A stretch of 64,000 nucleotides of DNA from Escherichia coli (GTDB lineage Bacteria > Pseudomonadota > Gammaproteobacteria > Enterobacterales > Enterobacteriaceae): NCBI RefSeq assembly GCF_017348835.2, contig NZ_CP071375.1, one strand, 5' to 3'. Made by a program: the position numbers. Shown here one piece after another: positions 55,501 to 58,500 of this stretch. The first letter of the stretch is position 1, and each line of letters starts with the position of its first letter.

Positions 55501-58500
55501 GGTTGTTTCGCTTGTTGACTCAGCGTTTTGCTTTTCTGACTCAGGGCGGAGCAGCACCAGAAACGCCAAATCCGCGCCTGCCACCACTCGATTCCGGCAT
55601 TCTTGGCGGCTACATTGCGCCCGATAATCTCACCATCACGTTATCGGTGGGTCACTCATTGTTTGATGAGCGCTTTGGCCTTGCGCCACAGATGCCAAAA
55701 AAGCTGCAGAAGATGACGCGTTTCCCCAACGACTCGCTGGATGCGGCGTTATGCCATGGTGATGTGTTGCTACAAATTTGCGCCAACACCCAGGACACGG
55801 TGATCCATGCTCTGCGCGATATCATCAAACACACGCCGGATTTGCTCAGTGTGCGCTGGAAGCGGGAAGGGTTTATTTCCGATCACGCAGCGCGTAGTAA
55901 AGGCAAAGAGACGCCGATTAATTTGCTGGGTTTCAAAGATGGCACTGCCAATCCCGATAGCCAGAATGATAAGTTGATGCAAAAAGTGGTGTGGGTAACG
56001 GCAGATCAGCAGGAGCCTGCGTGGACAATCGGTGGCAGCTATCAGGCAGTACGCTTGATTCAGTTTCGAGTGGAATTTTGGGACAGAACGCCGCTGAAAG
56101 AACAACAGACGATTTTTGGCCGTGATAAGCAAACCGGTGCGCCGCTGGGAATGCAGCATGAGCATGATGTGCCTGATTACGCCAGCGACCCGGAAGGGAA
56201 GGTGATCGCGCTGGACAGCCATATCCGGCTGGCGAATCCCCGCACGGCGGAGAGTGAGTCCAGCCTGATGCTGCGTCGCGGCTACAGTTATTCGTTGGGG
56301 GTCACCAACTCCGGACAACTGGATATGGGGTTGCTGTTTGTCTGCTACCAACACGATCTGGAAAAAGGCTTCCTGACAGTACAAAAAAGGCTCAATGGCG
56401 AAGCGCTGGAGGAATACGTTAAACCTATCGGCGGCGGTTATTTTTTTGCGCTGCCGGGAGTGAAGGACGCGAACGATTATCTCGGAAGCGCATTATTGCG
56501 GGTTTAATGTTTTTAGGCGGATGAGGCATTTGTGTGCAGATGCCTGATGCGGCGCTTGCGATGCTTATGATGCCCACAATCGGTGCGGGTTTGGTAGGCT
56601 GGATCAGGCGTTCACGCCGCATCCGGCGATCGTGCGTTGATGCCTGATGCGACGCTTGCGCGTCTTATCATGCCTACAATCGGTGCGGGTTTGGTAGGCT
56701 GGATAAGGCGTTCACGCCGCATCCGGCGTTCGTGCGCTGATGCCTGATGCGACGCTTGCGCGTCTTATCATGCCTACAATCGGTGCGGGTTTGGTAGGCT
56801 GGATAAGGCGTTCACGCCGCATCCGGCGTTCGTGCGCTGATGCCTGATGCGACGCTTGCGCGTCTTATCATGCCTACAATCGGTGCGGGTTCGGTAGGCT
56901 GGATAAGGCGTTCACGCCGCATCCGACGTTCGTGCGCTGATGCCTGATGCGACGCTTGCGCGTCTTATCATGCCTACAATCGGTGCGGGTTCGGTAGGCT
57001 GGATAAGGTGTTCACGCCGCATCCGGCGTTCGTGCGCTGATGCCTGATGCGACGCTTGCGCGTCTTATCATGCCTACAATCGGTGCGGGTTTGGTAGGCT
57101 GGATAAGGCGTTCACGCCGCATCCGGCGTTCGTGCGCTGATGCCTGATGCGACGCTTGCGCGTCTTATCATGCTTACAATCGGTGCGGGTTTGGTAGGCT
57201 GGATCAGGCGTTCACGCCGCATCCGGCGATCGTGCACTGATGCCTGATGTGAATCCTGCTGAAAGCACACAGCTTTTTTCATCTCTGTCATCACTCTGTC
57301 ATCTTTCCAGTAGAAACTAATGTCACTAAAATGGTGTTTTATAGTTAAATATAAGTGAATATATTGTTGCAATGAATGCGAGATCTGTTGTACTTATTAA
57401 GTAGCAGCGGAAGTTCCCGGCAGTGATAGTCAGTCACTATGGAGATCGCGGATGGTAACGTCCTGTACTGGACATGTTTTAGATAATCAACGCGCCACCA
57501 CTCGCGGAGTTTTCTCCTCCGGTAGTCATCTCGTCACTTTGCATTTTCAACCTCATCCTTTCTTTTCATGTGTTACCGACGCCGTAAACGGTGCGCGTAG
57601 CCGTTTTTCGGCATTTTATCCAAAAGCAAACTATGGCTTACAAGGAAGCCAACCCTCTGATGTTCGTGCGCATAATCGCGCTGCCAACGGCGCGTGTGAT
57701 GAATACAAACAACTCAAGGTGCTCTCCATGGGAAGACAAAAAGCAGTGATCAAAGCTCGTCGCGAGGCAAAACGTGTGCTGAGACGGGATTCGCGCAGCC
57801 ATAAGCAGCGTGAAGAAGAATCGGTCACCTCGCTTGTGCAGATGAGCGGCGTAGAAGCCATTGGTATGGCCCGCGACAGTCGCGATACCTCGCCCATCCT
57901 CGCGCGAAATGAAGCGCAATTGCACTATCTGAAGGCTATTGAGAGTAAGCAGCTGATATTCGCTACGGGCGAAGCCGGGTGCGGAAAAACCTGGATCAGC
58001 GCAGCAAAAGCGGCAGAGGCCCTGATACATAAGGATGTCGACAGGATTATCGTCACCCGTCCAGTTCTGCAAGCCGATGAAGATCTTGGCTTCTTACCTG
58101 GAGATATCGCAGAAAAGTTTGCTCCCTATTTTCGCCCGGTATACGACGTGCTGGTCCGGCGCTTAGGGGCTTCCTTTATGCAGTACTGCCTGCGACCGGA
58201 AATAGGGAAGGTGGAAATTGCGCCGTTCGCCTATATGCGTGGACGTACCTTTGAAAATGCAGTCGTCATTCTTGACGAGGCGCAGAATGTGACTGCCGCG
58301 CAAATGAAAATGTTTTTAACCCGCCTCGGGGAGAACGTGACGGTTATCGTCAACGGTGATATCACGCAATGCGATTTACCTCGCGGCGTGCACTCCGGAT
58401 TAAGTGACGCACTGGAACGTTTCGAAGAAGATGAAATGGTCGGGATCGTCCGATTCGGTAAAGAGGATTGCGTACGTTCGGCACTTTGCCAACGTACGCT

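What the first reader, a model, noticed from the sequence alone, without database searches (positions are those of the whole stretch)
57285..57303. Canonical Pho box upstream of phoH
Two CTGTCAT direct repeats with 11-bp phasing match the PhoB binding consensus and confirm Pho regulon control of phoH.
Basis: partly seen in the sequence, partly recalled or inferred. Interest (0 to 1): 0.15.

Follow-up and report, generated by a model that had tools for sequence, protein, structure and literature searches.

The report
Known PhoB box of phoH promoter
The two CTGTCAT repeats are the already characterised binding site through which the phosphate-starvation regulator PhoB switches on the E. coli phoH gene, so the finding is correct but ordinary; the more unusual thing nearby is a conserved, translated and folded leader between the promoters and the PhoH core.

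Summary
Confirmed and already known. CTGTCAT occurs at 57285-57291 and 57296-57302 (11-bp phasing) and is the only exact match in the window. The window is the E. coli efeOB-phoH-pgaDCB region. The 18-mer is identical to K-12, where a published PhoB ChIP-seq peak is centred 3 bp from the box and phoH RNA falls 2.8-fold in a phoB deletion. A weight matrix built from 58 other ChIP-supported sites scores it 18.7 bits (would rank 6th). Only 3 of 200 shuffled windows reach that score. Geometry is canonical: box, 10 bp, then GAAACT (57313-57318), as in phoA and phoB. This hexamer is conserved across Enterobacteriaceae. The P1 start site itself is inferred, because the original mapping paper was not available. 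The box plus hexamer is identical in 5233 of 5417 E. coli genomes. A PhoB-like site sits at the orthologous position in 52 of 76 related loci, but the perfect repeat is found only in Escherichia. "Confirms Pho control" needs qualifying: a second, PhoB-independent promoter (start 57403) and an ArcA operator (57320-57373) lie just downstream. Noticed in passing: the roughly 325-nt leader is translated in all 77 lineages yet shows no codon periodicity, and it carries covarying hairpins.

The parts
57285..57295 (+). Pho box repeat 1: CTGTCAT core plus CACT spacer
   Evidence: Identical in K-12.
57296..57306 (+). Pho box repeat 2: CTGTCAT core plus CTTT spacer
   Evidence: This is the only repeat retained in E. 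albertii.
57307..57313 (+). Decayed third 11-bp-phased unit (CCAGTAG). It reads CTGTCAG or CTGTAAG in other genera.
   Evidence: Alignment of 34 promoters. PWM score in the +11 register is -4.3 to 2.6 in the four intact-box Escherichia loci but up to 14 elsewhere.
57313..57318 (+). Inferred -10 hexamer of the PhoB-dependent promoter P1 (GAAACT)
   Evidence: It lies exactly 10 bp after the 18-bp box, as do TATAGT in phoA and CATAAT in phoB; phnC has CACGAT at the same offset. GA(A/G)ACT is conserved across genera. The start site (about 57325) is inferred, not mapped here.
57320..57373 (+). ArcA-P operator: DR-1 at 57323, DR1 at 57345, DR2 at 57356, DR3 at 57367
   Evidence: Park et al. 2013 Tables S3, S4 and S6, mapped to the window. 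The ArcA PWM scores 15.4 and 12.5 bits at 57342 and 57353.
57367..57372 (+). -35 hexamer of promoter P2 (TTGCAA), overlapped by ArcA DR3
   Evidence: Inferred from the mapped start site at 57403 and from conservation.
57391..57396 (+). -10 hexamer of promoter P2 (TACTTA)
   Evidence: It ends 6 nt before the mapped start site at 57403. TGTTGTACTTA is conserved.
57403..57403 (+). Transcription start of P2 (the PhoB-independent promoter)
   Evidence: Kim D. et al. 2012 list a start site at old coordinate 1084166 (221 reads, 49-nt 5'UTR). Adding 777 gives NC_000913.3 position 1084943, which is window 57403. This agrees with the ArcA footprint at -80 to -21.
57441..57454 (+). Shine-Dalgarno GGAG and the ATG (57452) of the long reading frame
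   Evidence: The ATG is present in 77 of 77 lineages and the surrounding block is near-invariant.
57452..58516 (+). phoH long form (354 aa, K-12 annotation). The PhoH core starts at 57728 (262 aa, PGAP annotation).
57635..57650 (+). Leader hairpin A: GGCTT-ACAAGG-AAGCC, with a CsrA-like GGA at the loop
   Evidence: Stem invariant apart from one U-G wobble in one sequence across 49 sequences. The CsrA consensus is cited from Potts 2017.
57677..57694 (+). Leader hairpin B: CGCGCT / GGCGCG, with compensatory changes
   Evidence: Three pairs are kept through changes on both sides in 13, 15 and 6 sequences. There are 34 such cells against 13.4 in shuffles, with 0 of 500 shuffles reaching the observed value.

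Best explanation
The repeat is the Pho box of the upstream phoH promoter, P1. Under phosphate limitation PhoR phosphorylates PhoB. A PhoB dimer then binds head-to-tail to the two 11-bp units at 57285-57306, with each CTGTCAT core contacted by one DNA-binding domain. The box takes the place of a -35 element. Bound PhoB recruits sigma-70 RNA polymerase to the weak -10 hexamer GAAACT (57313-57318), and transcription starts near 57325. The P1 transcript runs through the ArcA operator and the second promoter P2 (start 57403) into a translated leader and phoH. Shown by published experiments mapped onto this sequence: PhoB occupancy at the box, PhoB-dependent phoH RNA and sigma-70 occupancy, the P2 start site, and the ArcA-P footprint. 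Inferred: the identity of the P1 -10 hexamer, the P1 start position, and the expectation that ArcA-P bound from +1 to about +55 of P1 damps P1 as well as P2.
For: Exact tandem CTGTCAT with 11-bp phasing, unique in the window. It scores 18.7 bits on a leave-one-out PhoB matrix, and 3 of 200 shuffles reach that. The 18-mer is identical in K-12, and the ChIP-seq peak centre (1084845) is 3 bp from the box (1084825-1084842). phoH RNA is 2.8-fold lower in the phoB deletion, with lower sigma-70 occupancy. phoH is up 5.95-fold in a pst mutant. Box-to-hexamer spacing is 10 bp, as in phoA and phoB, and the hexamer GA(A/G)ACT is conserved. The box plus hexamer is 100% identical in 5233 of 5417 E. coli genomes. 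A site of at least 12 bits is present in the promoter region, nearly always at the orthologous position, in 52 of 76 Enterobacteriaceae loci, against a maximum of 3.1 bits in coding controls. The ArcA matrix scores the box at -4.0 bits, and the ArcA-P footprint (57323-57382) stops short of it.
Against: The P1 start site and -10 could not be checked. Kim et al. 1993 is not held, and the genome-wide start-site sets available were made in phosphate-replete medium and show only P2. GAAACT matches TATAAT at only 3 of 6 positions. In this strain an A at 57329 creates TAAAAT (57327-57332), which the consensus scan pairs with TTTCCA as an alternative promoter. The PhoB effect on phoH RNA is modest (2.8-fold). 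Outside Escherichia the orthologous site is degenerate (CTGTTAT / CTGTAAT) and in some genera scores as well for ArcA as for PhoB.
Confidence: 0.93

Rival explanations
1. The box does bind PhoB, but it works from a non-canonical upstream position. The functional -10 would be TAAAAT (57327-57332), with TTTCCA (57304-57309) as a -35. That places the box at about -54 to -37 relative to a start near 57339.
For: The consensus scan reports TTTCCA, a 17-bp spacer, then TAAAAT, with 9 of 12 matches. This strain has A at 57329 where K-12 has G, which improves that hexamer.
Against: K-12, where PhoB dependence was measured, has TGAAAT, which lacks the key A at position 2. The 57327-57332 region is not conserved outside Escherichia, whereas GA(A/G)ACT at the canonical 10-bp spacing is. 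The scan found 2 promoter-like sites against 1.2 expected, so it has no discriminating power. Published structural models require strict spacing between the box and the core promoter.
Confidence: 0.05
2. The repeat is part of the adjacent ArcA operator, or a shared site for an OmpR-family regulator, rather than a PhoB-specific site.
For: ArcA recognises 11-bp-phased TGTTA repeats, and its operator starts 18 bp downstream of the box. In E. cloacae and Buttiauxella the orthologous site scores 13 bits for ArcA against 14 and 10 bits for PhoB.
Against: In E. coli the box scores -4.0 bits with the ArcA matrix and 18.6 with the PhoB matrix. The ArcA-P DNase I footprint is -80 to -21 from P2, which is 57323-57382 and excludes the box. 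PhoB ChIP-seq centres on the box.
Confidence: 0.01
3. It is a chance match with no function.
For: Counting all hits with up to 3 mismatches to the pattern, the window is not enriched: 9 found against 4.7 expected, and 6 of 100 shuffles do as well.
Against: The exact match is unique. It coincides with a ChIP-seq peak and a PhoB-dependent gene. It is invariant in 97% of E. coli genomes and positionally conserved across genera.
Confidence: 0.01

Closest known systems
Pho boxes of E. coli phoA, phoB and pstS (PhoB-activated sigma-70 promoters)
   Same: Two 11-bp direct repeats with a CTGTCAT-type 7-bp core. The 18-bp box is followed by 10 bp and a -10 hexamer with A at position 2 and T at position 6. 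PhoB occupancy and PhoB-dependent RNA are documented.
   Different: The first spacer is CACT rather than A/T-rich, which costs about 5 bits relative to pstS. The -10 (GAAACT) is weaker. There is only one box, whereas pstS and ugpB have several. Induction is modest because a PhoB-independent promoter lies 78 bp downstream.
phoH P1/P2 promoter region as described by Kim et al. 1993 (J Bacteriol 175:1316), cited through Park 2013 and Fitzgerald 2023
   Same: This is the same locus, and the box is identical in sequence to K-12.
   Different: This strain differs from K-12 at flanking positions 57284, 57329, 57358 and 57375. It also carries six more 100-bp REP units upstream. The original paper could not be read here.
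ArcA operator (11-bp-phased TGTTA direct repeats)
   Same: Same response-regulator family and the same 11-bp phasing. It is immediately adjacent to the box (57320-57373).
   Different: The core is TGTTA rather than TGTCA. The E. coli Pho box is not an ArcA site (-4 bits, outside the footprint).

Membership tests
Pho box (PhoB binding site of a PhoB-activated promoter) | [quoted passage not shown] | tested here: met
   CTGTCAT+CACT and CTGTCAT+CTTT at 57285-57306. The definition is as restated in PMC2648988.
Pho box (PhoB binding site of a PhoB-activated promoter) | Good match to the motif derived from PhoB-bound sites in vivo | tested here: met
   18.7 bits on a matrix built from 58 other ChIP-seq sites, whose median is 15.3. 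It would rank 6th.
Pho box (PhoB binding site of a PhoB-activated promoter) | PhoB occupies the site in vivo under phosphate limitation | tested here: met
   For K-12, which has an identical 18-mer, the ChIP-seq peak centre at 1084845 lies 3 bp from the box at 1084825-1084842. This is published data and was not measured in this strain.
Pho box (PhoB binding site of a PhoB-activated promoter) | Expression of the downstream gene depends on PhoB or the Pho regulon state | tested here: met
   phoH RNA is 37,076 in wild type versus 13,375 in the phoB deletion (q<0.01), and sigma-70 occupancy is more than 2-fold lower. phoH is up 5.95-fold in a pst mutant. Published data.
Pho box (PhoB binding site of a PhoB-activated promoter) | The box replaces the -35 and lies about 10 bp upstream of the -10 hexamer | tested here: met
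   The box is followed by 10 bp and then GAAACT (57313-57318). phoA (TATAGT) and phoB (CATAAT) have the same spacing, and phnC shows CACGAT at the same offset. The hexamer is conserved as GA(A/G)ACT.
Pho box (PhoB binding site of a PhoB-activated promoter) | A PhoB-dependent transcription start mapped downstream of that -10 | not testable with these tools
   Kim et al. 1993 is not held. The available start-site data are phosphate-replete and show only P2 at 57403. Other datasets are not held or are truncated.
Pho box (PhoB binding site of a PhoB-activated promoter) | Conservation of the site in orthologous promoters | tested here: met
   Identical in 5233 of 5417 E. coli genomes. A site of at least 12 bits is present, nearly always at the orthologous position, in 52 of 76 loci from other species, with controls at 3.1 bits or less. 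It is lost in E. albertii and in one Escherichia sp..
ArcA box | Match to the ArcA direct-repeat matrix and protection by ArcA-P | tested here: not met
   -4.0 bits on a matrix of 114 ArcA boxes. The published footprint covers 57323-57382 and excludes the box.

The most novel reading that the evidence does not exclude
The Pho box itself holds no surprise. The most novel reading left open concerns what its promoter transcribes. The roughly 325 nt between P2 and the PhoH core may be a post-transcriptional control leader, not simply an N-terminal coding extension. Its translation from a conserved SD-ATG (57441-57454) is maintained in all 77 lineages: as an in-frame fusion in 54, an overlapping upstream ORF in 18, and a closely preceding upstream ORF in 5. 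The peptide evolves without codon periodicity, while the RNA keeps covarying hairpins, a CsrA-type GGA hairpin, and a predicted pairing that hides the core Shine-Dalgarno sequence. On this reading, ribosome transit or CsrA binding would gate translation of the PhoH core. A smaller point: the box is the remnant of a three-unit array shared between PhoB-like and ArcA-like specificities, and E. albertii has lost one unit through an 11-bp deletion.
Probability: 0.3. Interest if true: 0.45.

Novelty: already known. Interest (0 to 1): 0.1.

Why it matters
For the finding itself, very little. It re-identifies a textbook regulatory site whose binding, regulation and partial conservation are published. 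Its use is as a positive control that the first-stage reader recognises Pho boxes correctly. The context adds three points of modest value. First, phoH is not a clean Pho reporter, because a PhoB-independent, ArcA-repressed promoter sits 78 bp downstream of the inferred P1 start. Second, natural variants such as E. albertii, with a one-unit deletion, offer ready-made tests of the need for two half-sites. Third, the conflict between the 354-aa and 262-aa phoH annotations reflects a real evolutionary pattern. That pattern, a leader that is always translated but whose peptide is unconstrained and whose RNA is structured, may be worth a dedicated study, given that the function of PhoH is still unclear.

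Tried and rejected
(1) I tried to read Kim et al. 1993, the original P1/P2 mapping and PhoB footprint, by PubMed id and by PMC193217. It is not held, so the P1 start and -10 remain inferred.

(2) I looked for a P1 start in genome-wide datasets. Kim D. 2012 lists only the P2 start. Conway 2014 has no held supplements. Thomason 2015 is not held. The Cappable-seq supplements have no entry near the locus, probably because the files are truncated.

(3) Literature searches for 'phoH psiH' and for phoH with transcription start site gave nothing on P1.

(4) An Rfam search of 56800-57900 found no family in the phoH leader, only REP-derived naRNA4 hits upstream plus noise.

(5) I tested the ArcA-site rival for the box and rejected it for E. 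coli.

(6) I considered TTTTCAT at 57276 as a third upstream half-site. It is 9 bp from the box, not 11, so it is out of phase, and I rejected it on reading the sequence.

(7) CsrA lead: phoH (b1020) appears only in the pooled list of about 1,500 genes that were bound or affected in any of the Potts 2017 assays. That is too unspecific to count as evidence.

Full report
**Observation.** The sequence at 57285-57303 is CTGTCATCACTCTGTCATC. CTGTCAT starts at 57285 and again at 57296, so the copies are 11 bp apart. The pattern CTGTCATNNNNCTGTCAT has a single zero-mismatch hit in the 64-kb window on both strands, and it is this one. Hits with up to 3 mismatches (9 found, 4.7 expected) are not enriched, so the signal lies in the exact match. 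To avoid relying on a remembered consensus, I built a weight matrix from the 58 PhoB ChIP-seq sites other than phoH listed in Table 1 of Fitzgerald et al. 2023. The site at 57286-57303 scores 18.67 bits, against a median of 15.3 for the training sites. It would rank 6th among them and is second best in the window. Only 3 of 200 dinucleotide-preserving shuffles of the window reach that score anywhere.

**Locus.** The window is the E. coli chromosome: efeO, efeB, a REP array, phoH, pgaD, pgaC. Pfam places the PhoH domain at residues 149-353 of the 354-aa ORF. The window is collinear with K-12 MG1655 around phoH, with window coordinate + 1,027,540 = NC_000913.3 coordinate. The 18-mer is identical in both. 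Nearby differences are at 57284, 57329, 57358 and 57375.

**Published evidence mapped onto the window.**
- The box corresponds to MG1655 1084825-1084842. Fitzgerald et al. report a PhoB ChIP-seq peak centred at 1084845, assigned to phoH, with the motif TGTCATCACTCTGTCATC.
- In the same study phoH RNA is 37,076 in wild type and 13,375 in the phoB deletion (significant), and sigma-70 occupancy is more than 2-fold lower without PhoB.
- phoH is up 5.95-fold in an APEC pst mutant, in which the Pho regulon is constitutively on.
- The original description of promoters P1 and P2 and of the pho box (Kim et al. 1993) is cited by these papers but is not held.

**Geometry.** I fetched the classic K-12 Pho promoters and lined them up on the box.
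- phoA reads CTGTCATAAAGTTGTCAC, then 10 bp, then TATAGT.
- phoB reads TTTTCATAAATCTGTCAT, then 10 bp, then CATAAT.
- phnC shows CACGAT at the same 10-bp offset; I did not verify that this is its -10.
- phoH reads CTGTCATCACTCTGTCAT, then 10 bp, then GAAACT (57313-57318). That hexamer has the A at position 2 and T at position 6 that the others share.

In an alignment of 34 promoters from many genera, GA(A/G)ACT is one of the most conserved blocks. I therefore infer that it is the P1 -10, with a start near 57325. This is an inference, because no start-site data for phosphate-limited cells were available. The consensus scan offers an alternative of TTTCCA, 17 bp, then TAAAAT at 57327-57332. That hexamer is TGAAAT in K-12 and is not conserved outside Escherichia.

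**Conservation.**
- Within E. coli, the 34 nt from the box through the hexamer are 100% identical in 5233 of 5417 genomes. A minority lineage of 36 genomes (85% identity) appears to correspond to CTGTCATCACACTGTCATCTTTGCAATACAAGCT (seen in L005), which keeps both cores.
- Across 76 usable loci from other Enterobacteriaceae, 52 have a site of at least 12 bits in the promoter region, nearly always at the orthologous position about 430-447 nt before the PhoH core. Matched coding controls never exceed 3.1 bits.
- The perfect CTGTCAT pair is found only in Escherichia. Elsewhere the site reads CTGTTATATTTCTGTAAT or similar, often followed by a third phased unit (CTGTCAG) that has decayed to CCAGTAG in E. 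coli.
- This agrees with the published statement that the phoH site is conserved 'to a lesser degree'.
- E. albertii has lost exactly one 11-bp unit and keeps a single half-site. One Escherichia sp. genome also has only one.

**What else sits at this promoter.**
- The strongly conserved block just downstream is the ArcA operator plus P2. Park et al. 2013 list the ArcA-P site ATGTCACTGAAATGG...TTGTTGCAAT, which is window 57320-57373. They report a footprint at -80 to -21 relative to P2 and 25-fold derepression of phoH in an arcA mutant.
- Kim D. et al. 2012 map a phoH start at old coordinate 1084166. That is window 57403, with a 49-nt 5'UTR to ATG 57452. It fits a -10 of TACTTA (57391-57396) and a -35 of TTGCAA (57367-57372).
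- The ArcA footprint therefore covers 57323-57382 and does not reach the box. An ArcA matrix built from 114 published boxes scores the box at -4.0 bits, against 18.6 for PhoB. The ArcA rival is rejected for E. coli.
- In some other genera the orthologous site is ambiguous between the two regulators.
- The presence of P2 explains why loss of PhoB lowers phoH RNA only 2.8-fold.

**Noticed in passing: the leader.** K-12 annotates phoH as 354 aa starting at 57452. PGAP annotates 262 aa starting at 57728 in a strain identical to the window over the 601-nt query (57150-57750). Four observations bear on this.
1. Across genera the 92-codon extension shows no codon periodicity of substitution: 0.32 / 0.32 / 0.31 by codon position. 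The core shows 0.03 / 0.02 / 0.33.
2. The ATG at 57452 is present in all 77 distinct sequences, within a near-invariant block that includes its GGAG Shine-Dalgarno. The ORF it opens is never cut short. It fuses in frame to the core in 54 lineages, ends 22 nt after the first base of the core ATG in 18, and ends 23 nt before it in 5. A control frame averages 6.4 stops.
3. The RNA carries conserved hairpins. Hairpin B (57677-57682 with 57689-57694) has three pairs kept through changes on both sides. That gives 34 such cells against 13.4 +/- 3.2 in shuffles, with 0 of 500 shuffles reaching the observed value, and 98% of cells paired against 31-46% when partners are slid.
4. Hairpin A (57635-57650) has a stem that is invariant apart from one U-G wobble in one sequence, and presents uuACAaGGAagc. 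This resembles the CsrA consensus ruACArGGAugu with GGA in a loop. RNAalifold also pairs invariant upstream segments with the core Shine-Dalgarno sequence, but without covariation.

No Rfam family matches the leader. The only CsrA dataset evidence for phoH is membership of a pooled list of about 1,500 genes. I regard the pattern as real, its function as unknown, and the CsrA and coupling ideas as untested.

**Other items.**
- The REP array at 56525-57249 is 7.2 copies of a 100-bp unit. Four copies score above the Rfam gathering threshold for naRNA4. K-12 has exactly 600 bp less between efeB and the box.
- The best PhoB-type site in the window, 35253-35270, is the published agp site. In this strain it reads TGTCAT where K-12 has AGTCAT.

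Noticed in passing
window 57403-57727: The stretch between the P2 start and the PhoH core (annotated in K-12 as a 92-codon N-terminal extension) shows no codon periodicity of substitution (0.32/0.32/0.31, against 0.03/0.02/0.33 in the core). 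Yet the ORF from the conserved ATG at 57452 is never interrupted early in 77 lineages: 54 are in-frame fusions, 18 end 22 nt after the first base of the core ATG, and 5 end 23 nt before it. It looks like a translated leader whose peptide sequence is unconstrained.
   Followed up: partly
window 57635-57650 and 57677-57694 (also 57460-57473 and 57502-57523): The phoH leader carries conserved RNA hairpins. Hairpin B has three covarying pairs (0 of 500 shuffles reach the observed count). Hairpin A has a near-invariant stem (one U-G wobble in one sequence) and presents ACAAGGA, which resembles the CsrA consensus. A predicted pairing hides the core Shine-Dalgarno sequence (57716-57723). No Rfam family matches.
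   Followed up: partly
window 57320-57403: Immediately downstream of the Pho box lie a published four-repeat ArcA-P operator (57320-57373) and the PhoB-independent promoter P2 (-35 at 57367-72, -10 at 57391-96, start at 57403). phoH is therefore under combined phosphate and redox control. The ArcA site overlaps the inferred P1 start.
   Followed up: yes
L008 (E. albertii NBRC 107761) about 2050-2075; L004 (Escherichia sp. MOD1-EC7003): E. albertii has an exact 11-bp deletion of one Pho-box unit and keeps a single CTGTCAT. One Escherichia sp. genome also has only one. This predicts weakened or lost PhoB control of phoH in those lineages.
   Followed up: partly
window 57307-57313; loci L010, L012, L023, L035, L046 and others: In other Enterobacteriaceae the site is a three-unit, 11-bp-phased array (for example TTGATATAATT CTGTAATATTT CTGTCAG). 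The third unit has decayed to CCAGTAG in E. coli. In E. cloacae and Buttiauxella the orthologous box scores about as well with an ArcA matrix as with a PhoB matrix.
   Followed up: partly
window 56525-57249: A tandem array of 7.2 copies of a 100-bp REP/BIME unit (96% matches) lies between efeB and the Pho box and ends 36 bp before the box. Four copies exceed the Rfam gathering score for naRNA4 (RF02564). K-12 has exactly 600 bp (six units) less here.
   Followed up: partly
window 35253-35270: The best PhoB-matrix hit in the window (21.4 bits, TGTCATATTTCTGTCACA) lies 37 nt upstream of the agp start (35307). It is the ortholog of the published K-12 agp ChIP-seq site. In this strain it reads TGTCAT where K-12 has AGTCAT, so it is closer to consensus.
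   Followed up: yes
window 57329 (also 57284, 57358, 57375): This strain differs from K-12 at four positions in the promoter region. The A at 57329 (G in K-12) turns TGAAAT into TAAAAT and lies in ArcA repeat DR-1. The G at 57358 lies in ArcA DR2. The A and G alleles at 57329 are both found among Escherichia lineages.
   Followed up: no
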